DNA of 64,000 bases, from assembly GCF_018977255.1 (NCBI RefSeq), contig NW_024705135.1, forward strand, positions 1 through 64,000, read 5' to 3'. Below, one piece after another: positions 7,309 through 47,869 of the stretch. Source of the DNA: Callorhinchus milii. Lineage: Eukaryota. The notes under the pieces were generated by a model that had not been told where the DNA came from, did not search any database, and was given only the letters and a program-made list of their open reading frames with translations. The stretch's first letter is position 1. Every line of letters starts with the position of its first letter. The translations under genes were made by a program, and so were the position numbers.

Positions 7309-10300
7309 CTAAACGACCCCCCACTGGATGACACTGGTGTCTTTGCCGCCGATGGAGACCAGCTGGGCATCGCCGTGGAGAAAAGTCACGTTGGTGACAT
7401 GACTGCTGTGTCCACCATAACTGTGACTGGGAGCCTGGAAAAACAACAACAACAACAACAACAACAACACAAGCAATTATACAGTGTCCCTCACGCAGGG
7501 TAACGCTCCAGAGCGCTTAAACAGCACAATTATAATAATACATAATAATAATAATCCTGCCATTTGACCCGGCGCCTGATCACGTCTTCGAGACGTCCCA
7601 AAGCGCTTCACAGGAGACACTGTAAAGTGTAGTGACTGTGTGTTTTGCGGGTGAAATGCGGCAGCGAATTGCGCCCGGCGACGTCCCCCACAAACAGCCG
7701 TGGGTTGAGTGACGACATTACTATTATTCTGAAGGGATTATTACCCCCGGAAAGTGATCCCCCAATTGACTAACCAGCGGGTTCCTGGTAAACAGGCGCG
7801 TGGGGGTGTGTGTGGGGGTGTGTGTGTGTGTGTGTGGGGGGGGGGGAGGGGGGGGGGTCGGCAGTAAGGAAACTTGTCTAAGGTTTCGCTCTGATCTAAT
7901 CTGCCCGGGTGGGGGCCTCTGGCTTGCGAGGCGAGAGCTCTGACCCCTACACTACAGGACCCCACAGCTAAGTTTAAGGTGAGTGCTGAAGGTCCTGGTG
8001 TTTCTGTGGTGACACACGTACCCGAGGGTGGGAGCAGGGGAACGAGAACAGGTTGACTTTGCCAAAATCGTCGGCCGTGGCTAACAGCTGGTCATCAGCT
8101 GACCGGCAAATAGCGTTGATATCCGTGCCGTCTGCTCCCTCCGGCCACACCCCTGTGGGGAGAGAGAGAGAGAGAGAGAGAGTACATTAATCATCGTCAT
8201 GATGACAGTCCTGGCGGTTGACCCGGCGCCTCATCACATGGTTGAGACGTCTCAAAGCGCTTCACACGATACACTGTCAAGTGCAGTGACTGTGTATTTT
8301 GTGGGCGAAACACGGAAGCCCATTGCGCCCAGCGACGTCCCCACAAACAGCGGTGGGGGTTGAGTGACTGTTTTTTTAAAATTTTATTGGCCCACATTTA
8401 CACAGCGCTCTCTCTCCCCGTCCGGGAATCCAACCCGAGTCCTTCCGCTTGCGAGGCGAAGGCTCTAATGCGCTACAGGGACTGCGCAACACCCACCGGA
8501 AAGCAAGAGTTTGTTGGACAAAAGAAGAACGAGGCCCATCTGGTGCACCTCCCACCGTCCTGGCGGTCGCCTGACATGTCGTGTCCCCGACTATACAGTG
8601 AATCACCGATGATGAAGTGCTCTGGTACACGTAATCCCTTTGCTCGATGCCTGACAGGTCATCGCAACGTCTCAAACGTCTTGTGTTTGACGCCCGCGCT
8701 CCCCCCGCCCATTCCAGGGAGTGAAGTGACTGTGTAGTTTGTGTGTGTGTGGGTGGGGTGGGTGAGGGGGGTAGAAACTGTGAGTTGCCCCTGAAGTCCT
8801 GACTTACCAAACACCTGGAAGCCCAGTGCACAGGTGGAGGAGACCCATTGCACACTGCGCACCTGGTCTGCGCTGGTCACCTGCTTACAGCTCGGGGTCC
8901 CTGTGTGAGAGAGCGAGTGAGAGGGAGACCAGGAAGCCCCTCCCCCTCCCATTAGCTCCTCCCACCCACCCAAGCCCCTCCCCTACCAAGGACCACCCCC
9001 TCCCTGACCAAGCCCCTCCCCTCCCCAGCACCACCCACCCACCCACCCGAGCTCCCCCTCCCCACCCTCTACCCACGAACCTTACCCCCTCCCATTGGAA
9101 CTCCTCCCCTCCAAAGCTCCTCCCCTCCACTAAGCTCCTCCCATCCACCAAGCTCCTCCCATTCCCGCACAAGCTCCTCCCCACCCCTCCCTGTCCCCCT
9201 CCCCCCGCCCCGAGCCCCGCCCACACACTCACAGTGGAGAATCTCGTAGTCGCCCGAGTTGGTGACGAAATAGTGACTGTCGTGCGACCAGTCCAGGTGA
9301 GTGACGAAGCTCGAGTGGCCCTGAGACAGGAAACAACAACAACAACAACAGCAACTCACACACGCGGCGTCGGGAGGACGTCCCCGGGCGCTGGGCCGGA
9401 CAGTCAGGGGTTTGGACCCGAGCTGAGCGTTGGCATCAGGAAGGGGTGGAGGGCGGGGGAGGGTGACCGGAGGGTTCAGACGGGCCTTGAAGGAGGCGAG
9501 GGAGGGGCGGGGGAAGGCGGTGAGGGAGGGGCGAGGGAAGGCGGTGAGGGAGGGGCGAGGGAAGGAGGCGAGGGAGGGCCGGGGGAAGGCGGTGAGGGAG
9601 GGGCGAGGGAAGGCGGTGAGGGAGGGGCGAGGGAAGGTGGTGAGGGAGGGGCGAGGGAAGGAGGCGAGGGAGGGCCGGGGAAGGAGGCGAGGGAGGGGCG
9701 AGGGAAGGCGGTGAGGGAGGGGCGAGGGAAGGCGGTGAGGGAGGGGCGAGGGAAGGCGGTGAGGGAGGGGCGAGGGAAGGCGGTGAGGGAGGGGCGGGGG
9801 AAGGCGGTGAGGGAGGGGCGAGGGAAGGCGGTGAGGGAGGGGCGAGGGAAGGCGGTGAGGGAGGGGCGAGGCGGAGGGACTCTGGGATGGAGTTCCAGAG
9901 GGTGGGGGCAGAGAGGCTGACCGCACGCGCGACCCCCTCACTCGCTTCCCTCCCCCGAGGCTCGCGGCCCCCGCCCCCGAGGCCCCTCCCTCCCTCTCTC
10001 ATGGTCCCTCCCCCTCACGGCCCCGCCCCCGGCGCTGACTCACTGAGCACCTCCCGATCCGACTGTACTTCCTGCCGCCGTCAGACACACCGTAAACATA
10101 CACATAGTTGTCGTGGGAACCGATCGCCAAGAAATTCCCATCTGTGAAGAGAGAGAGAGAGAGAGAGAGATAAAGGAGAGAAAGAGGAGAGAAAAAAAGA
10201 AAAGGAGAAGAGGAGAGCGCGAGAGAGAGAGAGAGAGAGAGACACAGAGGTGTTGGGTCGCTCACCGGGGGAGTAAGCCATGACCGAAAATTTCTCATTG

Positions 10301-11724
10301 CCGTCGCTGCGACACGTCACCACCTCCTGCGTCTCCACGTCCAGCACCAGCCACCTGCCGAGATCACAGAGACCCCCACCCCACAGTCACTCACTCCAAC
10401 ATCAACCCCCCCCCAACACTCCCCACCCCCCCAACAACACAGCTCAGTCACTGACACCAACACCCCCCCGCCCTCCGCCCCCCCCAATAGGGAGCCAGTG
10501 GTGCTATTTCGTCTCCAACCTCCCAACACCCCGCCCCCCCCCCACCCGCCTCACTTGGCTGTCTGTAGCCCCACCGCGATGACAGATCCACTGGGATGGA
10601 ATCCCACCGCCTGGGCCGGATCCTGCCGGAAAAAAGAGGAAATTAAGGATAATAATAATAATAATCCCGGCATTTGACCCGGCGCCTCATCACGTCCTTG
10701 AGACGTCTCAAAGCGCTTCACCAGGACTTGCTGTCAAGCGTAGTGACTGTGCGTTTTGTGGGCGAAAGGCGGCAGCCAATTGCGCCCAGCGACGTCCCCA
10801 CAAACAGCAGTGGGTTGAAGTGACCGAATTATTCTTATCATTCACAGACCCACACAAATAACAAGTTGCATTTATATTAGCGCCCTTCACGGGGGTCGCG
10901 TCTCGGAACACTTACACACACACACACACCACAGCAACACACACTTACGTCCAGAGTCTGACTCCACACAGGTTGGTGGGAGCTGGAATCCCACAGGTGA
11001 AGCAGACGATCATGGCCGCACGTGGCAAACAGCCCAGTACTGGGGTGAGCAGCCAAACCCCACAGCTCGTCAGTGTGACCCTGAGACACCATCATCATCA
11101 TCATCATCATCAAAACGACTCACACAAAAGAGCGATGGAGAGAGAAAGAAAGGGAGAGCGAATGTTTGTGTGGAGTGTAGAGGGAGCAGAGAGTGAGCGA
11201 GCGGGAGGGTGAGCGAGCGGGAGGGTGAGTGAGCGAGTGAGCGAGTGTTAGTGAGTGAGGGGGCAGTGAGTGTGTGTTAGTGAGTGTGTGTTAGTGAGTG
11301 AGTGTGTGTGTTAGTGAGTGAGTGTGTTAGTGAGTGAGTGTGTGTGTTAGTGAGTGAGTGAGAGTGAGTGAGTGTGTTAGTGAGTGTGTTAATGAGAGTC
11401 AGTGTGTTAGTGAGTGTGTTAGTGAGTGTGTTAGTGAGTGAGTGTGTGTGTTAGTGAGTGAGAGTGAGTGAGTGAGTGAGTGAGTGTGTTAGTGAGTGTG
11501 TTAGTGAGTGTGTTAGTGAGTAGGCAGTCGCGGTGTTGGCTGCTCACACTGACCTGTACAATGGGGTTGTACCCATTGGCCAGGGAGCCCTGGAGGATAC
11601 AGTTGCGGGTGGTCCCCACGAACAGCTCAGCCCCCTTCCCCTCCGCAATCGTCCTCACCGGCCCAAAGGCCTCCGGCACCTGCACAAGGACACACAAAGA
11701 GTCAGCCGCTCACTATCCTTCTTA

Positions 11725-11758
<34 letters not shown>

Positions 11759-14700
11759 TGCGCGCGCACACACACACGTACACAGTCTTAACATGAGCAA
11801 TAATCACAAGTTGGGCCTCTCCGTTGCTCGCCCTCCCGCCTCCGAGTCAGTGTATGTGAGTGAATAATAATAATCCCGGGGTCCTCACGTCGTCAAAACG
11901 TCTCAAAGCACTTCACAGGATACACTGTAAAGTGTAGTGACTGTGTGTTTTGGGGGTGAAACACCGCAGCCGATTGTGCCCAGCGACGTCCCCACAAACA
12001 GCCGGGGGTTGAGTGACCGATTTATTATTATTTATTTTATTTTGAAGGGATTATTACCCCCAGAAATCGACTAACAAGCGGGTTCCTACTGACTGCTGGG
12101 AAACAGATGCGTGTTTCATCCTGACCTGACCCGCCCGGGAATCGAACCCGGGTCTCTCGTTTGCGAGACGAAGGCTCTAACCATTGAGTTACGAGGGAGA
12201 TGAGGAGGGAGGACATAGTAGTGAGGAAGGGAAGGAACGAAGCTCTCTCTAACCTCGCTCTCCTGCAGTTTACGGTATTGTTGATCCCACAGGATGAGTT
12301 TCCGATCTTTCCCTCCGCCCGACAAAAGGGTCCCATCGTTCCGCATACACACACTGAAAATCCCCCCTTCGTGAGCTCCCGCAACCACACTGCGGATCCT
12401 GTTAGTCCCTGAAACCAGCAACAACAACACATGACATTTACACGTTGCCTTTCGTGTCAGGAGGACATCCCGAGGCGCTGGACAGTCAGGGGTTTGGACC
12501 TGAGCTGAGGGTTGGGATCAGGAGGGGGTGGAGATAGGAGGGTGACCGAAGGCGCGTTGGTTGAAGAGGAGGGTCTTGACACTGGCCTTGAAGAGGGCGA
12601 GGGAGGGGGCGAGGTTGGGAGGGCGTGAGGCGGAGGGACTGTGGGATGGGATTACAAAGGTTGGGGGCACAGAGGCTGATGGTGGGGGGATGTGGAGCAG
12701 ACCAGAGCCGCTGAGCGGAGGGAGCGGACAGGTTAATTATGGAGTTGTAGGTCACAGAGGTAGGGAGGAGCGAGGCCTTGGAGGGGCTTTGACTGACAAT
12801 GCAGCTCTCTCTCTCTCTCTCCCCAGCGCTGTGTGAAGCCTGGACTGTGAGCTCAGAGTCCCTGATGTGGGGGACGGGGCTCGAACCCATAACTTCCTGA
12901 TTCGGAAGCGAGGAAGGTCGGGGAGCGGCGAGACTGACCTTTTCCCCAGATAATGAGGTTTCCACTGGAATCTCCCGAGATCACGTCTCCATTCTGTGAG
13001 AAAGTCACCGACAGAACGTACTTGGGTTTCTCCTGTTTCTGAGACACAGAAACAAACGCGCAAACAAACAGGTCAGAATAATAATATTAATAATAATAAT
13101 CCTTGCATTTTATCGTGTCTTCGAGACAACTCAAAAGCGCTTCACGGGATACGTTGTAAGTGTAGTGACAGCAGTGTCCCACAAGCAGTCATGGATTGAG
13201 TGACCAAATTATTATTATTATTACCCCCGGGAAAGTGATCCCCCAATCGACTAACATGCAGGTTCCTACTGACTGCCGGTAAACAGAGGCGTGTGTGTGT
13301 GTGCGTGTGCGTGTGCGTGTGCGTGTGTGTGGGGAGTGAGGAAACTTGCCGAAGGTTCCGGCCTGACCTGACCTGACCCGCCCAGGAATCGAACCCGGGT
13401 CCTCTGGCTTGTGAGGAGTTAGTTGTATGATGTTGTCGTGGTCTCACCTCGAAGATGCCCTGTTTCTTGGTCAGAACACTGCCCTCCAGGGTCCAGAACA
13501 GGATGTGGGATTTCCCGCAGGTGACGATCAGGTTCGCCTCCGTCGGGTGGAAACTCGCCGCCAACACAGGCTCATTAGAGCACTGACAACGAGAGAGGGA
13601 GAGAGAGAGAGAGAGAGAGAGATCGTATGACAGAGAGTGAGATTGTGTGAGAGGGAGGGAGGGAGTGTGAGAGAGTGAGGGATTGTATGAGAGGGAGCGA
13701 GGGAGTGTGAGAGAGTGAGGGAGTGTGAGAGAGGGGGGGAGGGAGTGTGAGAGAGTGAGAGGGAGTGTGAGAGAGTGCGAGGGAGTGTGAGAGAGTGTGA
13801 GGGAGTGTGAGAGAGTGTGAGAGAGTGTGAGAGAGTGTGAGAGAGTGTGAGAGAGTGTGAGGGAGTGTGAGCGAGTGTGAGGGAGTGTGAGGGAGTGTGA
13901 GCGAGTGTGAGGGAGTGAGGGATTGTGTGAGCAGGAGGGAGGGAGTGTGAGAGAGCGAGGGAGTGTGAGAGAGCGAGGGAGTGTGAGAGAGCGAGGGAGT
14001 GTGAGAGAGCGAGGGAGTGTGAGAGAGCGAGGGAGTGTGAGGGAGTGAGGGATTGTGTGAGCAGGAGGGAGGGAGTGTGAGAGAGCGAGGGAGTGTGAGA
14101 GAGCGAGGGAGTGTGAGGGAGCGAGGGAGTGTGAGGGAGTGAGGGATTGTGTGAGAGGGAGCGAGGGAGTGTGAGAGAGCGAGGGAGTGTGAGGGAGCGA
14201 GGGAGTGTGAGGGAGCGAGGGAGTGTGAGGGAGTGAGGGATTGTGTGAGAGGGAGCGAGGGAGTGTGAGAGAGGGAGGGAGTGTGTGAAAGGGAGGGAGT
14301 GTGTGAAAGGGAGGGAGTGTGTGAAAGGGAGGGAGTGTGTGAAAGGGAGGGAGTGTGTGAAAGGGAGGGAGTGTGTGAAAGGGAGGGAGGGCGTGTGAGG
14401 GTTTGTGTGAGAGAAAGAGAGTGCATGTGAGAGAGTGAGACAGAGAGCGGATGTGAGAGTGAGAGAGACAGAGTGTATGAGGGGGAGAGAGAGACTGACC
14501 TTGACCTCCGACACCCGGCTCTCTCGTGGCCAATCCCACACAGACAACATGTGTTCATTGGAGTCGTCCACAGCACAAAGATACCCTCCTCCATTCTGTA
14601 CACAACACAACACACAGCCGCCAGTATCACACCATCATTATATTTATTTTTGAGGTGAGCGCAGCAACCACTACACCACAGATTCCCTCCATCTCGCCCT

Positions 14701-17700
14701 CTCTCCACATCCCACCCTTTCACCATCCCTCTCTCCATCCTCCCTCTCTCCATCCTCCCTCTCTCCATCCTCCCTCTCTCCATCCTCCCTCTCTCCATCC
14801 CCCCCTCTCCATCCTCCCTCTCTCTCTCTCCCTCCCCTTCTCTCTCCATTCATAACATAACATGTACGAGCAGGAGTCGGCCATTCGGCCCTTCGAGCCT
14901 CTGCCCCGCCATTCATTCATGGCTGATCTTCTAATCCAACTCCAGCTAATAACCTGACGCTGCCTTATCCCCATATCCCTTAATCCCTTTGGCAATAAGA
15001 CATCTATCTCTCTCAGTCTTGAATATGTTCAAGGACTGAGCGTCAACAGCCCTTTGGGGTAGTGAGTTCCATACATTCACTGCCCTTTGAGTGAAGTCCA
15101 TCCTTCCCAAAATAAGGAACCAAAACTGCCCACAGTATTCCAGGTGTGGTCTCACAGGGCCCTATACAGTTGCAGTGAGACTTCCCGACTCTTATACTCT
15201 AATCCTTTCATAATGAACTCTAACATACCGTTCCCCTTCCTAATCGCTGCTGCACCTGCAGAATAACTTCCTGTGATGGTGTACAGGACACCCGAGTCCC
15301 TCTGGACACCAACACACCTCACCTATCTATTCCTCCCTCTCATCATTCCTCCCCCTCCCTCCCCTCTCTCCATCCCCCCCCCCTCTCCCTCCCCCTCCCC
15401 CCCCCGGTGACTCACGCTCTGGGAGAAGCTGAGGCAAGTGACCGCCCGGTCGAAGCCCCCGATGATGTGCAGAGTGTTGAGGCTGACGGAGTCCCAGACC
15501 CGGGCGTGAGGGGCCAGCGGCTGTCGGGGGGAGTGGGGGGGGAGAGAGAGGATGAGAAATCCATAGGGGGAGAGACACACAGAGAGACAGTTATAGAGAG
15601 AGAGAGTGAGAGAGAGAGAGAGTGAGAGAGATTGAGAGATACTGGGGGGAGAGTGAGTTTCACAGACAGACAGAGAGTCACAGACACACACAGACACACA
15701 CAGACAGACCGTGGCCGTACCTTTCCGTCTCTCCCGTTTCCCGCTACTTGTCCCGTTGCTATGGTGACACGATCAGGATGCACTGCCAGACTGGGGTGGG
15801 GGAGAACAGGTGTCAGGGTGTGTGTGTGGGGAGGGAGGGGCGCGGTGGGGGGTGGTGGGGGAGGGGGAGGGGGCGGTGGGGGTGGGGGTGGTGGTGGACG
15901 GGGCGGTGGGGGTGGGGGGTGGTGGTGGACGGGGCGGTGGGGTGGGGGTGGTGGTGGAGGGTGCGGTGGGCGGTGGGGGTGGTGGGGGAGAGCGGGGGGG
16001 TTGGTGTGGGAGTGGGTGGGGGGCAGGGGGGACGGGGGGCGGTGGGGGTGCGGTGGGCGGTTTTTCGGTGGGGGAGGGGGCGGTGTTTAGAGGAGAGAGC
16101 TCCAGTGCACGTGTGAAGGGCTCAGTGACACAGACAGGGAGGGAGGGAGGGAGGGGAGCCCGGGACGTCCCACTCGGTGTGAGTGAGTGAGTGTTGGTGT
16201 TAGGGCGAGAGGTTAGAGGTCAGGGTTGGTGTCGCCCCTCCTCACCACTTGACGTCGTCGCTGTGCCCCACATAGTGTCTCTGGAGCTGCTCCTCCATGT
16301 TGTAGAGAACAACCACTGAGGCCACAAAGTACACGATCTCTCCGGTCGGCAACAGGTACAGGTTAGAGCGACAATCCCTCCCCCGGTACCCATAGCTACA
16401 CCCCCGTTAAGGTCATCGGCCGTCAGTGCTGACCCCCAGCCCCCCCAACCTCCCCACCCTGCCGCCCAGCCCCCCAACCTCCCCACCCTGACCCCCAGCC
16501 CCCCCAACCGCCAACCATTACCCTCCCAACCCTGACCCCAGGCATGACCCCAACACCCCACCCGTTAACCCCCTAATCCTGTGACCACCCCTCCCAAAGG
16601 TTAAGTGTTCCGGGGGGTGGGGGGGTGGTGGAGAAGCTATGTCAGTGACACTCAGGGTAAAGGATACACCCAGTCCATCTTCAGCTTGTGGGGTGGCAGG
16701 GTAGCTGGGCTGTGCAGCTGGTAAGAGTCAGTCACCTCCTGCGGCAAGAACATGGTGACCGGTCGTCCCCGCAGAAACATCCGTACATAACCATCATCTG
16801 CCGATCACAATCAATACCCGATCAATAACCTCCATTCACCCCCACCCCGTCCCCGATCAATCACCTCTGACACACACACACGCATGGAAAGCCATCACCA
16901 TCAGCCATGGGATACGCATCTCTCACACACACACACTGCCCAGGCTTTGGAGGGGGGGGGGGGAGCCCAGAGTGTGCGTTGGGGTAACTGTTGGGGTCTA
17001 ACCAACTAAACCCACACACAGCTCAGCCATCGAGAGCGAGAGAGAGAGAGAGAGAGAGCGAGCGCTGTCTGGCCGAGCTTTCCCGCTGCGTGTCCCGCTC
17101 GGACCCCCTCCCCGTTAGTTAGTTGGGGCTTTGGCTGTGGGGTTACCAGGAGCTGAGGGGGAGGATTCCCGGCCCCCAGGGACTGGTCGGCCCTTCCAGG
17201 TCCTGCCGATGAGCCGGGCCGGGCTGTGCTGCCATCAGCAGTGAGTGCCCCGGGACCCCGCGGACCCTCCCGGCTCAGGAACAGAGTGAGAGAGACAGAG
17301 AGAGATGGGGGGGACGAAGGGAGTGTTGAGGTGAAGCTGCTCATGTTTGTGTGAGTCTGTGACCTCTATCCTTTACCTGCACTGAACACCGCCTCCTTGT
17401 GTTTGCTGTAACACAAAACAAAATTAATATTAAAATTATGTCAAAAGTTCACCTTCCCCCAAAAAACAAAGTCACCACTGTCCGCAGTTGACTGCGATTC
17501 CCAACAACAACAACAACAAGATTCCATTTATAAAGCGCCTTTCACGTCAGGAGGACGTCCCAAGGAAACATCCGGTCACAGACAGACGTGCCAGAGCTTT
17601 GGTGGGGCGGGAATTGTGGTGAGCGGGAGGGAGGGTTGTGTTTAGTGCAGGGTGGGGCTGGGCAGGGATTTAAATAGTTAGTGACATCCCGAGGCGCTGA

Positions 17701-20700: not shown

Positions 20701-23700
20701 TCAGACACCAGGATTGAGATGTTGGTGACGATGGTGATAATAATAACAAGTGTGACCCAACCCCTCAGCACACAGGATACACTGTAAACAACAACAACAA
20801 GATTGCATTTATAGAGCGCCTTTCACGTCGGGATGAGGTCCCAAGGCGCTGGACAGTTGGGTCGGGACCCGAGCATTGGGGGGAAATGGTCAGGGGGAGG
20901 GAAGGGAGGGGGCGAGGAGGGGGAAATGGTCAGGGGAAGCGGAGGGAAGGGAGGGGGCGAGGAGGGGGAAGAGAGTCGAGAGGGAGCTGAAGGCACAGTC
21001 AAAAAGAAAGGTCTTGAGACCGGCCTTGAAGGAGGAAAGGGAGAAAGGGGCGAAGGCACTGGGGATAGAGTTCCACAGCCTCGGGGCTGAGAGGCTGAAG
21101 GCCACTGATGGTCGGGCGGTTGGGGCGGGGGATGTGGAGCAGACCGGAGCCAGAGGGACGGATGGTACGGGGGGGTACGTGGGGGGATAGTAGGTCAGAG
21201 AGGTAGGAGGGAGTGAGGCCGTGAATGGCCTTGTAGGTGAGGATGAGGATCTTGAACTCGATCCTCTGGGGGATGGGGAGCAGTGGAGGCGAGCGAGGGT
21301 GAGGGTGAAGGTGAGGGCGAGGGCGAGGGTGATGTGGTCGCGGTGTCTGGTGCGGGTCAGTACACGAGCTGCAGAGTTCTGGATGACCTGCAGTGTGGAG
21401 GGAGGGCCGGGAAGGCCGACGAGGAGAGCGTTCCCATAGTCCGGCCTTGAGGTGATAAAGGTGTGGACCAGAGTTTCAGCCGCGTGAGGGGTGAGGTAGT
21501 GCCGTAGTCTGCGATGTTCTGGAGGTGATGGAAGGCGGTGCCAGTTGTGGCGCAGATATGAGGGAGAAAGGGTCGAGGGGAACCCTGAGATTCCTGATGT
21601 CTTTGAGAGGTGGAGAGTGCGGCCTTGGATGCTGATGGTGTCGGCGCCTGAGGTGCGGAGACGCTGACGTGAGCCGATCAGGAGGGCCTCAGTTTTGCGC
21701 CCGTTGAGCTGAAGTTGTCTCTCTAAAGTGTAGTGACTGTGTATTTTTTTTGTGGGCAAAATACAGCAGCCAATTGCACCCAACGACGTCCCCACAAACA
21801 GTTGTGGTTTGAGCGACCAAATTATTATTTTGTTTTAAAAGGATTATTACCGGCCAAGTGCGAGGAAGTCATGGACTTCTTTTCATCTAAAATACACAAC
21901 ATCCGCCAGGCAGCCTCATCCACCTGCCTCTTGTTACCCACTACCACACCCTCTCTGTCCCCCTCACCCTCCCCATCATCTGTTCCTACCACCACCCCCA
22001 TCCTACATTCCTTCCTCCCCATCTCTCCCTCCTCCCTCTCACCCACCATCACCTCCATGAAACCCACCACCTGCCGCCTCGACCCCCTCTCACCAACTTG
22101 CTGGTCACCCAGCTCCCCCTCCTCTGCCCACTCATCAATCAGTCCCTGCCCCCCTCAAAACTGCTGTCATCACCCCCCTCCTCAAAAAACCTTCACTAGA
22201 TCCCTCAAACCCCAGCCACTGCCGTTCTATTTCAAACCTGCCCTTCCTCGCCAAAGTCCTAGACCGCGTTGTTGCCAATCAACTCCGCGCACACCTCTCC
22301 TCCCACTCCCTCTTTGAACCCCTCCAGTCCGGTTTCCGCCCACAGTACAGAGACTGCGCTTGTGAAAGTCTCAAACGACATCCTCTCTATCTGTGACCGG
22401 GGCTCCCTCTGTCTCCTTGTCCTTCTGGACCTCTCCGCCGCTTTCGACACAGTCTATCAGGCCATCCTCCTCCACCGCCTTTCCTCCGTCGTCCACCTCA
22501 GTGTGACTGCACTCGCCCGGTTCGAGTCCTACCTCACAAACCGCCAGCAGTACATCTGCACAAATGGCTTCTCCTCCCGCTCTTACCCGGTCATCTGCGG
22601 GTACCCCAAGGATCCATCCTTGGCCCCTTCCTCCTCCTCATGCTCCCTCTTGGGGATGTCATCCGCAGACATGGCGTACATTTCCACATGTATGCAGACA
22701 ACACCCAACATTTTTCCACCTCGCTTTGCACCCCCCAGTTCCTCCTCTACTCTCAACTCCACGACCACCGATGTCCTGACAGCTGCCTGTCCGACATCGA
22801 GTCCTGGACAAGAGACAACTTTCTTCAGCTCAACGTACGCAAAACTGAGGCCCTCCTGATTGGCTCACGTCAGCGCCTCCGCACCTCAGGCGCTGACACC
22901 ATCAGCATCCAAGGCTGCACTCTCCACCTCTCAAAGCCATCAGGAACCTCGGGGTTCTGTTCGACCCTGAGCTGTCCTTTCTCCCTCACATCCGCACCAC
23001 AACTGGCACCGCCTTCCATCACCTCCGGAACATCGCCAGACTACGGCATTACCTCACCCCTCACGCGGCTGAAACCCTGGTCCACGCCTTTGTCACCTCA
23101 AGGCTGGACTATGGGAACTCTCTCCTCGTCGGCCTTCCCGCCACCTCCCTCCACACTGCAGGTCATTCAGAACTCTGCAGCTCGTGTACTGTCCCGCACC
23201 AGACACCGCGCCCACATCACTCCCACCCTCACCCTCGCCCTCGCTCGCCTCCACTGGCTCCCCATCCCCCAGAGGATTGCTTTCAAGATCCTCATCCTCA
23301 CCTACAAGGCCATTCACGGCCTCGCTCCCTCCTACCTCTCCAACCTACTATCCCCCTACCTACCTGCCCGTACCCTCCGTTCCTCTGGCTCTGGTCTGCT
23401 CCACGTCCCCCGCCCCAACCACCCTACCATCGGTGGTCGGGCCTTCAGCCTCTCAGCCCCGAGGCTCTGGAACTCCATCCCCAGTGCCTTCGCCGCTTCC
23501 TCCCTTTCCTCCTTCAAGGCTGGTCTCAAAACCTTTCTCTTTGACCGTGCCTTCAGCTCCCTCTCGACTCTCTTCCCCCTCCTCGCTCCCTCCCTTCCCT
23601 CCCCTCACCCTGACCATTTCCCGCCTCCTCGCTCCCTCCCTTCCCTCCCTCACCCTGACCATTTCCCCCCTCCTCGCTCCCTCCCTTCCCTCCCCTCACC

Positions 23701-26700
23701 CTGACCATTTCCCCCCCTGCTCGGATCATGACCCAACTGTGCAGCGCCTTGGGACGTCCTCCTGACGTGAAAGGCGCTTTATAAATGGAATCTTGTTGTT
23801 GTTGTTGTTGTTGATGTTCTGCCTGTCAGACCTCAGGGGATGGATGAGCGCAAACTTCCTTCAGCTGAACGTTGACAAGACGGAAGCCATACTCTTTGGC
23901 TCTCGTCAACGTCTAAAATCTCACGGTTTCTCACCTCCTCCACCTACCCGACCTCCCCCTAAAACTCTCCGAACCTGTACGCAACCGCGGCGTCAGCTTG
24001 GACCCCCAATTATCCTTCCTCCCCCACATCCGGTCCCTCACCAGCACCGCTTTCTTCCACCTCCAATGCATCGTCCGTCTCCGACAATACCTCACTTCAA
24101 AAGCCACTGAAACCCTGGTCCAGGCCTTGTCACCTCTCAGCTGCACTACTCCAATGCCCTCCTCCTCCCCTCCACCACCATCCGTAAAATCCAAATCATT
24201 CAAAACTCTGCGCCCACATTCTCACCCGCACCAATTCCGCTCCCCGATCCCCCCAGTCCTGGCCCTCCACCCCACCCCCAAACCCCGCTCCCCCCAGTCC
24301 TGGTCAGACTGCACTGGCTCCTGTCCCAGAGAGGATCGACTTCAAGATCCTCACCTTTGTATTCAAGTCCCTGCACTCCTCTGCACCCCCCGACCTCTCT
24401 GACCTCCTCTCTCCTCGTTGCCTTTGTTCCTCCGGGTCTGGCCTCCTCCTCGTCCCCCGAGTCCTCCGCTTCACCCTCGGCGGCCATGCCTTCAGCCACT
24501 ACGCCCCGAAGCTCTGGAACTCCTTTCCCCTCGCCCCTCTCTTCCTATTTTCAGGTCTCTGCTGAAGACCTTTCTTCTCGATAGCGCCTTTGGTCACCTA
24601 ACAAGCGGGTTCCTACTTACTGAGGTGTCTGTGTGGGTGGGTGGGGGGCAGGGGTGGTGGGGGAGTAAGGAAACTTGCCTAAGGTTTCGCTCTGACCTGA
24701 CCCACCTGGGAATCGAACCCAAGTCCTCTGGCTCGCGAGGCGAGGGGTCTAACCCCTGAGCTACAGGGGCTGTGGGGTGCGAGGCGAGGGGTCTAACCCC
24801 TGAGCTACAGGGGCTGTGGGGTGTGAGGCGAGGGGTCTAACCCCTGAGCTACAGGGACTGTGGGGTGTGAGGAGGGGTCTAACCCTTGAGCTACAGGGGC
24901 TGTGGGGTGTGAGGCGAGGGGTCTAACCCCTGAGCTACAGGGGCTGTGGGGTGTGAGGAGGAGTCTAACCCCTGAGCTACAGGGGCTGTGGGGTGCGAGG
25001 GGAGGGGTCTAACCCATGAGCTACAGGGACTGTGGGGTGCGAGGGGAGGGGTCTAACCCATGAGCTTCAGGACTCCTGATGGTGATGATGATGGTGATGA
25101 TGAAGGTACCTCTGGTGGGAGTTTTCTTGCCGAGGGCGGCACACTGCTCCTCGGTGACAGTCAGACGCCTGACCACATCGGCCAGGGCGGCCCTCAGCAC
25201 CTGGATCTCGTCCTCCTGCAGGTGCAGCCGCTGCTCCAGATAAGAGATTCGGTCGTCAACATCTCCATCGGGGCTGCTGGTCAGTGACACGNNNNNNNNN
25301 NNNNNNNNNNNNNNNNNNNNNNNNNNNNNNNNNNNNNNNNNNNNNNNNNNNNNNNNNNNNNNNNNNNNNNNNNNNNNNNNNNNNNNNNNNNNNNNNNNNN
25401 NNNNNNNNNNNNNNNNNNNNNNNNNNNNNNNNNNNNNNNNNNNNNNNNNNNNNNNNNNNNNNNNNNNNNNNNNNNNNNNNNNNNNNNNNNNNNNNNNNNN
25501 NNNNATCATCACCGACACCACCATCATCATCATCACCACCACCACCACCATCATAATCATCATCACCATCATTCATCATCACCATCAACATCATTAACAT
25601 CATCATTCATCATCATCGCCACCATCATCATCATTATCATCATCATCTCCATCAGGGCTGCTGGTCAGTGACATGCTCTTTCCTGTCAATATCAAGACAC
25701 ACACACACACTGTCCTCTGTCAACAACAAGTTCAACAACAAGACACACATAACGTCACAACAACAGCGTCTCTGACAAGTGTCTCCCCCCACCCCAGCAC
25801 TGCAGAGTCAGCCTCGACTGTGAGCTCCAAGTCCTTCAAAACCCACCACTTCCTGACTTTGAGGTGAGAGGGTGAGTGACTGAGCCACGGGCTGAGACAT
25901 CAGGACAACAGGAAGGGTTAAGTGGCTCAGGGACATTCTGTCACATCAGTTGCTGATCAGTCATATAGGGGAAGATTCCCCGGGGAACTGAAACTGGCGA
26001 GGATCGATGCAGTCACAAGATCGATGAGTGAGGAGAATTGAAGGTCTGGCAATGTTCCAAGAACTCACCAGTTCCAATCAGCAGATTTATTATTTACTGT
26101 GTAAATCTTTCCTCAAATCCCAGCTTGTGGAGTCCCTGTAGCTCAGGGGTTAGACCCCTCCCCTCGCACCCCACAGCCCCTGTAGCTCAGGGGTTAGACC
26201 CCTCGCCCCCACCCCACAGCCCCTGTAGCTCAGGGGTTAGACCCCTCGCCTCACACCCCACAGCCCCTGTAGCTCAGGGGTTAGACCCCTCGCACCCCAC
26301 AGCCCCTGTAGCTTAGGGGTTAGACCCCTCGCCTCGCACCCCAGCCCCTTTAGCTCAGGGGTTAGACCCCTCGCCTCGCACCCCACAGCCCCTGTAGCTC
26401 AGGGGTTAGACCCTCGCCCCCCATCCCACAGCCCCTGTAGCTCAGGTGGTAGACCCCTCGCCTCGCACCCCACAGCCCCTGTAGCTCAGGGGTTAGACCC
26501 CTCGCCTCGCACCCCACAGCCCCTGTAGCTCAGGGGTTAGACCCCTCGCCTCACAAGCCAGAGGACCCGGGTTTGATTCCCGGGCGGGTCAGGTCAGGGC
26601 GAAACCTTAGGCAAGTTTCCTTACTCCCCCGCCGCCACACACACACACACACAGACACCTCAGTAAGTAGGAACCCGCTTGTTAGTGTATTCAGTGAAGC

Positions 26701-27966: not shown

Positions 27967-29923
27967 CACCCCCCCCTCTACCCCCTTTAACTCTCTGATC
28001 TTCCCAGTTTCCTCCGCAAATAAAGAGAAAAATCACACACACACACAAAAGCCTTTCGCTCTTTCCTGCACGCGCTCTCGTCCCCCCCCCACCCCCGTCT
28101 CTCTCTCTCTCTCCCTTATTTCCACTTTCTCAAGCCTCCTTTCTCCAGACTCCCGTCACCATAGCAACCCTGCTCAACCCAGCTCCTTTCCATCAGGAAT
28201 CATATGAATAGAGGTTAAAAAAAAAATGTCTTGCTCTCTCTGTCTGTGACTCTGCTCTCCCTGCAAAAAAAAAAAAAAAAATTCACGTTAGCATCGCTCT
28301 CATACCCTCTCTACTCAAAGCGATTCCCTGGGAGAGGATTCTTAATTAAATCCTACATTTTAAATGGGGGTCGGAGGGTTGGTCGGGGGAAATTCAGGAG
28401 TGGGGAAAAGCAGAATACATAAGTAATCGTTTAACGCTTGGCTCTCTCTCTCTCTCTCTTGATTACATCACACCTAAGCCATGATACAACCAATGCTGGT
28501 AGCAAAACTCAACCCTCTCTCGCTCTCTCACTCCGTCTGCAGGAACTCTGCACCTAAGGGGTAAATTTATACCAAGATTCAAACGTATTTCTTCACCCCC
28601 CCCCCCCCCCCACACATACACACACTATCTCTCCACCAATGGAACGTCTCTCTCTTTCGTTCTCTCCGCAAAGCAAAACCAACTGGCAAACTGACTGATG
28701 CGAAATCGGATTACACCCAAAAATGACCTGACTTGATATATATATTCTTGTGATAAGTTGCACCGAGCTATGCGTTTTATTGCCAACTGTTTGTGAAGGA
28801 GGGTAGATGTAGTCTTTTGCTAGGCTAACTGTTTCGAACACCCGGGTAAGTAATAATAATAATAAACCTCACATTTGATATCGCGCCTTATCACGTCGTC
28901 GAGACGTCTCAAAGCCTTCACAGGATACACTGTTAAGTGTAGTGACTGTGTGTTCTGTGGGCAAAACATGGCAGCCAATTGTACACAGCGATGTCCCTAC
29001 AGTTATGGATTGACTAACCAAATTTTTTTTTCTATTTGAAGGATTACCCCAAAAAAGCGATCCGCCAATCGACTAACTAGCGAGGTCCCACTAATTGCTC
29101 GGCAAACAGAGGTGTGTGTGTGTGTGTGGAGTAAGGAAACTTGCCGAAGGTTGATTTTCTGTGGCAATGTTGGATACCAATAACTTCCTCACTCACTCCA
29201 TCCATATTACGGAAGATGTGACACCGAACATGGTGATGGATCATTAACTGCCCTGAAAATGACGGCTCTCTCACAAATCCTCAGGACGTCTAAATACAAT
29301 TGTACTGAATACAATAAAGTCAACTTCTAACTACAATTGTCATCATTCTTCCAATTTCAGTTAATAATAATCCTTGCATTTGATATAGCACTTTTCATGT
29401 CTTCTCGACGTTTCAAAGCGCTTCACAGAATAGACTGTAAAGTGAATTGACTGTATATTTGTGGGCAAAATGCTGCAGCCAATTGCGAACAGCAGCGTCT
29501 GTCCCACAAACAGTCGTGGATTGAAGTGACCAACTTTTATTTTTTTTTTCAGGGATTACTATCAGGCATGTGGACTAACGAAACTTGCCCAATGTTTCAC
29601 ACTGCCAGGAATCGAACCCAGGTCTCTCGCTTGAAAGGCGAGTGCTCTAACCAGAGCTACAGGACTCCAGCTGTTGGGTCAGTACTGTAGAAACAAATGT
29701 GGGCGTAACAGGACCCGTATGAGTAGGGCAGAGGTGATCGTAGGCATGGTCGATGAGGAAGGTCTTCAGGTGCGACGTGAAGATAGAAGGAAGGGGGAGG
29801 GATAGAGAGGAGGGAGCATGAAGGAGAATACCAAGACAAGCCCCAAGTCTGACACTGAGCCACCGAGATGCCTCAGCGATTGAGAGGAGTAAAATCACAG
29901 TGCACAGCCGGTTACAAAAACAT

Positions 29924-29929
29924 TTTATT
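29924..29929 (-). terminator. SNRPA polyadenylation signal AATAAA
   Basis: TTTATT on + strand, immediately downstream of the PIE and followed by U/GU-rich sequence. Confidence 0.8.
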
Positions 29930-29945
29930 CTCAGATACAAAGTTG

Positions 29946-29992
29946 GAAAGCTCCAGGTGCAATGTCGGAGAGACGCTGGGTGCGTTGCTTTC
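29946..29992 (-). promoter_or_regulatory. U1A polyadenylation inhibition element (PIE) in the SNRPA 3' UTR
   Basis: RNA sense reads GAAAGC-AACGCAC-CCAG-C-GUC-ucucc-GAC-AUUGCAC-CUGG-A-GCUUUC. This gives three stems and two 7-nt asymmetric loops, 16 nt upstream of AAUAAA, the architecture of the known vertebrate U1A PIE. Confidence 0.88.
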
Positions 29993-30897
29993 TGATCAGA
30001 TTTATCCCCGATATATAAAAACCAAACTCAACAAGTCAGCCATTCACATCAGACACAACTCAATCACTCAAAACACAAACAAACTCAAGCAAAAATACAG
30101 CCATGAGCTTTCACTGTTCCCCAAATCCAGTCAGACACGTGAATCCTCTGCTCCCAACTCATGGGTGTACTCGGGAGCCAGGGGACTGGGCAGGTGAGAC
30201 GATTCACCTCCCCTCCCCCTGGGGTAAGGAGTGGGGTTGAGAAAATATACCCTGAGGTCAAAAATTCCTCCTACTCTTAGCCTCAGAGTCAGTTTTAATA
30301 ATGATAATCCTTACATTAGGTACAGCATCTTATCAAGTTGTCGAGAAGGCTCAAAGCGCTTTACAGTGTAAAGTGGAGTGAGTGTGACCAAATTATTATT
30401 ATTATTGTGAAGGGATTATTACCCCCGGAAAGCGATCCCCCAATCGACTAACAAACGGGTTCCTACTGACTTGGTAAACAGAGGCGTCTGTGTGTGTGTG
30501 TGTGTGTGTGTGGAATAAGGAAACTTGCCTAAGGTTTCGCCCTGACCTGACCCGCTTGGGAGTCGAACCCAGGTCCTCTCGCTTGTTTGTATTCCTGAAG
30601 TCTAGAGCGAGTAACTTGATGACGGAATCCAAGGAGATGGTCACACACAGTGTGGGGGTTAGCAGTTCATCTGGTGGGGAGAGGGAGGTAGGCAACAGGG
30701 AGACACAAACTTGAACACAGGTCTCCTCACCTGACACTTACCTGGAGCGTCAGAACCTCGAGAGGCAACGAATGAACGAACGAACGAGCCATTGAATCGG
30801 GACTAAAACACACGGATTGGGTTGGGAGGAGGGGGTGTAGGAAGAGCCCACTCCAAACATTGCTGTGAACAAACCAGCGATCGGGCGAGAAGGGGCT

Positions 30898-34485
<3,588 letters not shown>

Positions 34486-47391: not shown

Positions 47392-47774
47392 TTAAAGCTC
47401 AAAGGTATACGAGATGATGTCAGAGCACCTCAGCAGCGCTTCTTTCTGAACCCCTAATGGCGTTGCAGGTTGGAGACTTGGAAGTTCAGGATGTCTATGT
47501 CCGAGGCTCCGAATGTGGCGTTGACTTTGACTCGCTCGTACATGGTGAGGTGGAGCGGCCTCCCCACTGCCCCCAGTAGGCTCCGCAGGAAGCCCTCCCT
47601 CAGCGCCGAGCGAGTGCTCTGCTCCCGTTCCAATTGCCAGCCGGAGTTGCCGACGTCAGAGGCCTGGATGGAGGAGGGCGAGAGCGCGAGAAACCGGGGA
47701 GAATTGGGGTCAAAACCTCGGCTGTGCCCGTCCGGTCCCCGGGGAAGCCGCAAAACCGCCACCGTGGACGTCAT
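47392..47774 (-). CDS. GEMIN7: Gem-associated protein 7 (SMN complex), single coding exon; 1-bp frameshift at ~47463 as assembled
   Basis: Acceptor ttctccacag precedes ATG at 47774. It reads MTSTVAVLRLPRGPDG..RSALREGFLRSL..FGASDIDILNFQVSNLQ, and the conserved end TPLGVQKEALLRCSDIISYTFEL* follows in another frame. Adding one A (CAAACG) restores a 127-aa protein. Confidence 0.88.
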
Positions 47775-47869
47775 CACTGTGGAGAAGAGAGTGAGCACTA
47801 AAACTGCATCAAACATCCTTTGCAAACCATCCACATTCTTCCCACTCGGCTCCTGTTAACCAGAGATCC

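What the first reader, a model, noticed from the sequence alone, without database searches (positions are those of the whole stretch)
29924..29992. Intact U1A PIE fold with a non-canonical first box (AACGCAC)
Seen: about 900 nt after the SNRPA stop the transcript can form the stems GAAAGC/GCUUUC, CCAG/CUGG and GUC/GAC. Two 7-nt loops each face a single unpaired base, and AAUAAA follows 16 nt later. Box 2 (29957-29963) is the canonical AUUGCAC, but box 1 (29980-29986) is AACGCAC. Established: the mammalian PIE binds two U1A molecules through AUUG(U/C)AC boxes, and the dimer inhibits poly(A) polymerase. Inference: the autoregulatory loop is ancient, and this lineage either relies on cooperativity to fill a much weaker box 1 or has a different set-point.
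Basis: partly seen in the sequence, partly recalled or inferred. Interest (0 to 1): 0.7.

Follow-up and report, generated by a model that had tools for sequence, protein, structure and literature searches.

The report
U1A self-brake with one weakened site
The mRNA tail of this vertebrate's gene for the splicing protein U1A keeps the RNA element with which the mammalian protein limits its own production, but one of its two docking sites is changed at two of seven letters, so the second U1A likely loads only at high protein levels and the brake likely leans on a nearby U1 snRNP site.

Summary
Observation confirmed on the minus strand. The element is the genome's best Rfam U1A_PIE match (43.0 bits, below the cut-off of 50; E 1.3e-5). 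It lies 905 nt after the SNRPA stop and 16 nt before AAUAAA. Box 1 AACGCAC is no assembly error: contigs from 2 of 2 same-species studies laid show it unchanged. A second species keeps box 2, the 3' stem arms and AAUAAA. U1 snRNA and the protein's PAP-inhibitory motif are ordinary, so box 1 is most likely simply weaker (about 200- to 700,000-fold if published single-base costs add up), though it keeps the three essential purines.

That site can also pair with the PIE's 3' half over 15 bp (7 of 5000 controls as strong).

Best reading: a PIE variant with a raised threshold, helped by U1 snRNP. No binding or repression was tested. By its unreviewed notes, the scan already met degenerate box 1 elements in other cartilaginous fishes. 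Verdict: real, a variant of a known system, modest interest.

The parts
30898..34485 (-). SNRPA (U1A) coding region, six exons with GT-AG introns, 276 aa
   Evidence: Exon assembly and translation. Exons 1 and 3 match human U1A best in PDB, ahead of U2B''. A separate U2B''-like last exon lies on contig C5.
30730..30754 (-). Predicted 9-bp hairpin (U1-STEM-like) whose 3' arm holds the last 4 of 10 nt of the U1 site
   Evidence: Core pair probability 0.97-1.0 in 36-111 nt contexts, 0.9 in 298 nt, 0.28 in the whole UTR
30736..30744 (-). Perfect U1 snRNP site CAGGUAAGU in the terminal exon, not used for splicing in the contigs seen
   Evidence: Only MAGGTAAGT match in the 64-kb window; pairs with this genome's U1 5' end at -14.0 kcal/mol; spliced contigs of X2 and X4 run through it
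30248..30637 (-). tRNA-derived SINE-like repeat inside the 3' UTR, between U1 site and PIE (limits approximate, from depth bins)
   Evidence: High multi-copy depth; tRNA-like heads of the same repeat type nearby
29987..29992 (-). PIE outer stem, 5' arm GAAAGC
29980..29986 (-). Box 1 AACGCAC: U2A and U3C against AUUGCAC; keeps A1, G4, C5, A6, C7
   Evidence: unchanged in contigs of X2 and X4
29964..29979 (-). Middle-stem 5' arm CCAG, single C, apical stem-loop GUC-UCUCC-GAC
29957..29963 (-). Box 2 AUUGCAC, canonical U1A site
   Evidence: Identical to the first 7 nt of this genome's U1 stem-loop II loop; no difference listed in organism D
29946..29956 (-). 3' arms CUGG, single A, GCUUUC
   Evidence: no difference listed in organism D
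29924..29929 (-). AAUAAA poly(A) signal, first AAUAAA after the stop, 27 nt after box 2
   Evidence: no difference listed in organism D
29885..29907 (-). Likely cleavage region near 29907 followed by a GU/U-rich stretch
   Evidence: The X4 contig stops matching at 29907, 17 nt after AAUAAA, with 2 unmatched letters; the X2 contig runs on. Weak hint only.

Best explanation
[quoted passage not shown] Free U1A would bind box 2 first and thereby pull the RNA into the two-loop fold. A second U1A would load on the weak box 1 only through contact with the first protein, when U1A is in large excess. The pair would then inhibit poly(A) polymerase at the AAUAAA 27 nt downstream. U1 snRNP bound at the upstream CAGGUAAGU site likely adds repression, as reported for the mammalian gene. 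Shown here: sequence, position, homology, presence in spliced RNA contigs, conservation of box 2 in a second species, canonical U1 snRNA, and a kept PAP-inhibitory motif. Inferred: all binding and all repression.
For: Rfam match with all stems pairable. In organism D (run X20) a contig matches 29888-29997 with 8 other letters in 110 and none listed in box 2, the 3' arms or AAUAAA; another matches 30693-30835 with no change listed in CAGGUAAGU. Box 1 keeps its 7-nt length, the closing C-G pair, the opposing single A and 5 of 7 letters (chance for a random 7-mer 0.013). These include A1, G4 and A6, whose loss costs 5.0-6.8 kcal/mol, while pyrimidine changes cost 1.6-4 (PMC2203988). The Rfam consensus box 1 is itself imperfect (AUUGuAC). 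Helix C and the PAP-inhibitory segment are kept: [21 protein letters not shown] against human [21 protein letters not shown], unlike U2B''; the motif is U1A 103-119, and one U1A alone is not enough for efficient inhibition (PMC5071671). The U1 site fits the MAGGUAAGU rule, lies in the terminal exon, is half-trapped in a stem like the human site, and such sites act up to 1190 nt from the poly(A) signal in reporters (PMC2367729 sections 3 and 21).
Against: If additive, two pyrimidine changes weaken box 1 by 220- to 720,000-fold; the upper part of that range is beyond what cooperativity could plausibly repay. A2 and C3 also create a competing hairpin ACGC/GCGU (probability 0.31-0.90) that costs the PIE fold a further 1.0-1.2 kcal/mol against UU. 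That both changes fall on pyrimidines is not significant (6 of 21 position pairs). The energy model does not favour the PIE fold without protein. The poly(A) signal is 27 nt from box 2 against 19 in the Rfam consensus. Box 1 of organism D could not be read: 4 of its 8 differences were not listed. Organism D has G to C at 30735, which breaks one pair of the U1 hairpin (-10.6 to -5.1 kcal/mol). Unreviewed notes of this scan report box 1 changed at essential bases in other cartilaginous fishes, which, if true, would favour the one-site rival.
Confidence: 0.47

Rival explanations
1. One-site element: box 1 no longer binds U1A. One U1A on box 2 works with U1 snRNP at the upstream U1 site, whose U1-70K supplies the further PAP-inhibitory motifs. 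The outer stem is kept only to hold the fold.
For: The upper range of the estimated loss and the competing hairpin. The U1 site is perfect, unspliced and unchanged in organism D. U1-70K carries four inhibitory motifs (PMC5071671). Human U1 site and PIE act together (PMC3157836).
Against: Box 1 keeps exact length, geometry and the essential purines. The U1 site is 744 nt from the PIE, with a repeat in between.
Confidence: 0.25
2. Mutual-hiding switch: the U1 site and the PIE's 3' half pair with each other over about 15 bp and hide both box 2 and the U1 site. U1A binding frees the U1 site, or U1 snRNP binding frees box 2, so U1A-U1 snRNP cooperativity replaces U1A-U1A cooperativity.
For: GCUCCAGGU 30748-30740 is the exact complement of ACCUGGAGC 29958-29950, and AGUGUC 30738-30733 pairs with GACAUU 29966-29961. 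Duplex -30.9 kcal/mol against -10.6 and -11.9 for the two local folds. With the U1 core fixed, 1 of 5000 random flanks was as strong; with the hairpin also kept, 7 of 5000. It is the best of all 33-nt windows of the last exon. With organism D's listed changes the duplex keeps its margin (-26.7 against -18.0).
Against: 8 of the 15 pairs are forced by the two motifs. Its probability is 0.03, 0.49 or 1.0 depending on the stretch folded. The local hairpin forms about 750 nt earlier in transcription. Organism D breaks one pair and shows no compensatory change.
Confidence: 0.12
3. A relic or repurposed element: no U1A negative feedback remains, and the sequence is kept as poly(A)-signal context or as a single U1A site that stabilises the mRNA.
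For: Below the Rfam cut-off. Single U1A sites in 3' UTRs can raise expression (PMC9136276, passages).
Against: Every stem still pairs although the outer stem differs from the consensus, and both known repressive elements are present together.
Confidence: 0.12
4. The CAG/GUAAGU is a real donor of a 3' UTR intron 156 nt after the stop, which would route part of the mRNA to nonsense-mediated decay, and the PIE is secondary.
For: Perfect donor consensus; a pyrimidine-rich AG lies near 30220.
Against: In 2 of 2 same-species runs laid, exon 5-exon 6 spliced contigs run through the site. Contigs drop rare forms and 132 joints were not shown, so a minor isoform is not excluded.
Confidence: 0.04

Closest known systems
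U1A polyadenylation inhibition element (PIE), Rfam RF00460; human U1A-PIE complex (PDB 1DZ5)
   Same: Host gene and position before the poly(A) signal; CCAG/CUGG and GUC/GAC stems; two 7x1 internal loops; canonical box 2; cognate protein with helix C and the 103-119 motif.
   Different: Box 1 is AACGCAC instead of AUUG(U/C)AC; 43.0 bits against a cut-off of 50; 27 against 19 nt from box 2 to the signal; AAUAAA instead of the consensus AUUAAA; a competing hairpin over box 1 is predicted.
Bipartite U1 site of the human SNRPA 3' UTR (Guan et al. 2007; seen only as cited in PMC2367729, PMC3157836, PMC3694450)
   Same: Consensus U1 site in the terminal exon, upstream of the PIE, partly trapped in a stem.
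   Different: 4 of 10 nt trapped here (predicted) against 5 of 10 reported; 744 nt from the PIE with a SINE-like insert; additional predicted 15-bp pairing with the PIE itself.
U1 snRNA stem-loop II
   Same: Box 2 equals the first 7 nt of the loop in this genome's U1 genes (6 of 6 loci read).
   Different: Internal loop in an mRNA rather than a hairpin loop; box 1 departs at positions 2 and 3.

Membership tests
U1A PIE (RF00460) | [quoted passage not shown] | tested here: met
U1A PIE (RF00460) | Three stems enclosing two asymmetric 7x1 internal loops | tested here: met
   All 13 pairs are Watson-Crick and align to the model; not the lowest-energy fold without protein
U1A PIE (RF00460) | Two AUUG(C/U)AC boxes | tested here: not met
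   Box 2 canonical; box 1 AACGCAC, unchanged in contigs of 2 studies
U1A PIE (RF00460) | Score at or above the Rfam gathering cut-off (50 bits) | tested here: not met
   43.0 bits
U1A PIE (RF00460) | Cognate U1A keeps the helix C region and the PAP-inhibitory motif 103-119 | tested here: met
   Residues 83-112 differ from human at three places (T89G, F101Y, R108K); more changes after 112
U1A PIE (RF00460) | Binds two U1A molecules cooperatively and inhibits poly(A) polymerase | not testable with these tools
   Needs binding and polyadenylation assays
Bipartite U1 site of SNRPA | MAGGUAAGU in the terminal exon, not spliced | tested here: met
Bipartite U1 site of SNRPA | Site partly trapped in a conserved stem | tested here: inconclusive
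   9-bp hairpin predicted; organism D breaks one pair; no covariation data
Bipartite U1 site of SNRPA | Synergy with the PIE in repressing polyadenylation | not testable with these tools
   Needs reporter assays

The most novel reading that the evidence does not exclude
In this lineage the two-U1A brake has been rewired into a U1A plus U1 snRNP switch. The U1 site and the PIE's 3' half hide each other in a 15-bp long-range duplex across 750 nt. Binding of either factor exposes the site of the other, which makes box 1 dispensable and lets the gene sense free U1A against U1 snRNP.
Probability: 0.12. Interest if true: 0.68.

Novelty: new variant of a known kind. Interest (0 to 1): 0.36.

Why it matters
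The PIE is the textbook case in which two RNA-bound copies of a protein are needed to inhibit poly(A) polymerase. A natural element that keeps the scaffold but has a much weaker first box tests how strict that rule is. It also gives a ready substrate for asking how the U1 site and the PIE cooperate. If the long-range pairing is real, it would offer a structural route to that cooperation. If not, this is an old, known feedback element with a drifted second site.

Tried and rejected
Second PIE-model hit L002 (G000:C16, 30.4 bits, E 0.07): its box 2 lacks G4, and no U1A-like coding sequence lies in the 26 kb around it (best E 2.6); treated as chance. SNRPB2-like gene L007 (C5): no PIE match and no U1 site in the 1.5 kb read after its stop. 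Decayed SNRPA copy L008 (C3): hoped for an old box 1, but it holds only part of exon 6 and the first part of the UTR; no PIE in 33 kb. A DNA search with the distal UTR found only the gene itself. Metagenome scans for orthologous elements: 0 hits with the strict pattern; 13 with the loose one, of which 0 of 13 matched RF00460 or exon 6, so all were dropped as chance. Run listing: no RNA holder on record; X2 and X4 are guessed RNA and show a spliced exon 5-6 joint. I laid 4 of 24 listed runs; X17 gave no cover of the element. No cover of 30014-30247 in X20 is no proof of divergence, and contig depths (119 against 37 in X2; 33 against 39 in X4) cannot rank UTR parts. Look-ups of earlier findings by sequence and place gave nothing. 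The bacterial promoter/terminator scan is irrelevant to this eukaryotic locus. No structure or complex prediction was run: the dimer depends on RNA and is already solved. Papers not held: Guan 2007, van Gelder 1993, Workman 2014, Guan 2003; the supplement of PMC3157836 with the PIE alignment could not be read.

Full report
1. Observation. Rfam RF00460 matches 29924-29995 with 43.0 bits, E 8.4e-7 in 15 kb and E 1.3e-5 in the 992-Mb genome, where it is the best of 2 matches. The score is under the cut-off of 50. Folding alone does not single it out: z 0.09, middle stem at most 0.006. The fold is therefore inferred from homology and would need protein to be populated.

2. The gene. Six exons from 34485 to 30898 give a 276-aa protein. 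Exons 1 and 3 match human U1A ahead of U2B'', and a distinct U2B''-like last exon lies on contig C5, so this is SNRPA. Residues 83-112 differ from human at T89G, F101Y and R108K only. The region named as PAP-inhibitory (103-119; PMC5071671, passages) is U1A-like in its first ten residues and diverges after. This genome's U1 snRNA has the usual 5' end and the loop AUUGCACUUC in 6 of 6 loci read out of 20 matches. So the protein must still read AUUGCAC, and a shifted specificity is unlikely.

3. Is box 1 real and transcribed? I laid 4 of 24 listed runs on 29780-32100. Contigs of X2 and X4, same species label, different studies, span the element with one other letter each, both outside it. Both runs hold an exon 5-exon 6 spliced contig, so they contain RNA. 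The X4 contig stops matching at 29907, 17 nt after AAUAAA, with two unmatched letters; the X2 contig runs on. This is a weak hint for the poly(A) site, with read-through or DNA in X2. In organism D (X20) a contig matches 29888-29997 with 8 other letters. Four are listed (29903, 29931, 29935 and the apical loop base 29967); none lies in box 2, the 3' arms or AAUAAA. The other four are not listed, so its box 1 is unread. The only T>A change counted in that run is elsewhere, a faint hint that it too lacks U at position 2. X17 did not cover the element.

4. How weak is box 1? In stem-loop II, losing A1, G4 or A6 costs 5.0-6.8 kcal/mol and pyrimidine changes cost 1.6-4 (PMC2203988, first part of the text and passages). 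Box 1 keeps all three purines plus C5 and C7 and changes U2 and U3. If additive, that is 220- to 720,000-fold; the consensus box 1, AUUGuAC, has one such change (15- to 850-fold). The two new bases also allow a hairpin ACGC/GCGU with probability 0.31-0.90, costing the PIE fold 1.0-1.2 kcal/mol more than UU would (AC ranks 7th or 8th of 16 dinucleotides, so it is not extreme). A match of 5 of 7 has a chance of 0.013 for a random 7-mer, so the box is not randomised; that both changes hit pyrimidines is not significant. The range covers both 'filled by cooperativity at high U1A' and 'empty'.

5. CAGGUAAGU at 30744-30736, 156 nt after the stop, is the only MAGGTAAGT in the window. Shuffles give 0.70 per window, so it is not rare window-wide; its weight comes from its position in this exon (about 0.005 per kb of one strand). 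It pairs with the U1 5' end at -14.0 kcal/mol, is read through unspliced in both RNA-like runs, and has no listed change in organism D. It sits half in a predicted 9-bp hairpin. The human gene has such a site, trapped by pairing over 5 of 10 nt and acting with the PIE; U1 sites act up to 1190 nt from the signal in reporters (PMC2367729 sections 3 and 21; PMC3157836, passages; PMC3694450, passages). Against strict conservation, organism D has G to C at 30735, which weakens the hairpin from -10.6 to -5.1 kcal/mol. I noted this site before opening earlier findings.

6. Long-range pairing. Tested here: 30748-30740 is the exact complement of 29958-29950, and 30738-30733 pairs with 29966-29961; duplex -30.9 kcal/mol against -22.5 for the two local folds together. 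Controls: 1 of 5000 with random flanks around a fixed core, 7 of 5000 with the hairpin also kept; best of all 33-nt windows of the last exon. Against it: 8 of 15 pairs follow from the motifs themselves, whole-UTR probability swings from 0.03 to 1.0 with the stretch folded, the local hairpin is made first, and there is no compensatory change. I rate it 0.12.

7. Mechanism. Most likely (0.47): U1A binds box 2, a second U1A loads on box 1 only at large excess through the dimer contact, the pair inhibits poly(A) polymerase, and U1 snRNP at the upstream site adds to it. Rivals: one U1A plus U1 snRNP (0.25), the mutual-hiding switch (0.12), relic or positive element (0.12), NMD intron (0.04). All binding and repression steps are inferred from the mammalian system (PMC2874999, PMC9977717, PMC10251633, PMC1903381, passages).

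8. Comparison and novelty. It works like a PIE but fails two membership tests (two canonical boxes; Rfam cut-off), so I file it as a variant. An old origin is expected: the U1A/U2B'' split dates to a jawed-vertebrate ancestor (PMC4114683, passages and part 3 of 6; no mention of PIE or shark), and a PIE is annotated in a teleost (PMC5584509, passages). Nine literature searches (listings only) showed no paper on a degenerate box 1 in fishes. The primary papers were not held and one supplement could not be read, so it may be in print there. PMC9136276 and PMC1635273 were seen as passages. Three unreviewed notes of this scan describe one-box elements in other cartilaginous fishes; I could not check their sequences and do not count them as support.

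9. Verdict. Real, correctly described, a variant of a known system. Interest 0.36.

Noticed in passing
L008:1500-2085 (G000:C3, from about 92923755): Decayed copy of SNRPA exon 6 and the first part of the 3' UTR (68% over 644 nt, E 2e-63). Its U1 site is broken (CAGTTAAG), and a similar SINE-like repeat starts at about the same place as in the gene, hinting that the insert between U1 site and PIE is old. No PIE follows.
   Followed up: yes
L002:1501-1604 (G000:C16:12222724-12222827): Weak PIE-like skeleton (GC-ACAGCAC-CCAG ... AUUCCAC-CUGG-A-GC, then AUUAAA), 30.4 bits, E 0.07; no U1A-like gene within 26 kb; host gene not identified.
   Followed up: partly
L007 (G000:C5:48605408-48605563, minus): SNRPB2 (U2B'')-like last exon, 87% identical to SNRPA exon 6 in protein; no PIE or U1 site in the 1.5 kb read after the stop.
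   Followed up: partly
window 30299-30294, minus: An AUUAAA at the end of the SINE-like repeat could give a shorter 3' UTR that skips the PIE; no evidence of use was obtained.
   Followed up: no
window about 9000-16100 (minus) and 47457-47855 (minus): Exons of an EML-type beta-propeller gene downstream and a GEMIN7 exon upstream of SNRPA (35 selected ORFs scanned). Human EML2, GEMIN7 and SNRPA all lie on 19q13 (recalled).
   Followed up: no
window 22397-23701, plus: Fragment with weak reverse-transcriptase similarity (PF00078, E 1e-5), probably a LINE remnant.
   Followed up: no
L009-L014 (G000:C24): At least 11 U1 snRNA genes with the same top score in two tandem clusters, about 2.2 kb apart.
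   Followed up: no
SNRPA exon 3, window 33140-33110: T89G at the beta4-helix C junction, where U1A contacts the 3' part of the loop (C5-A6-C7 region per PMC4114683); both human U1A and U2B'' have T. Effect on binding unknown.
   Followed up: no
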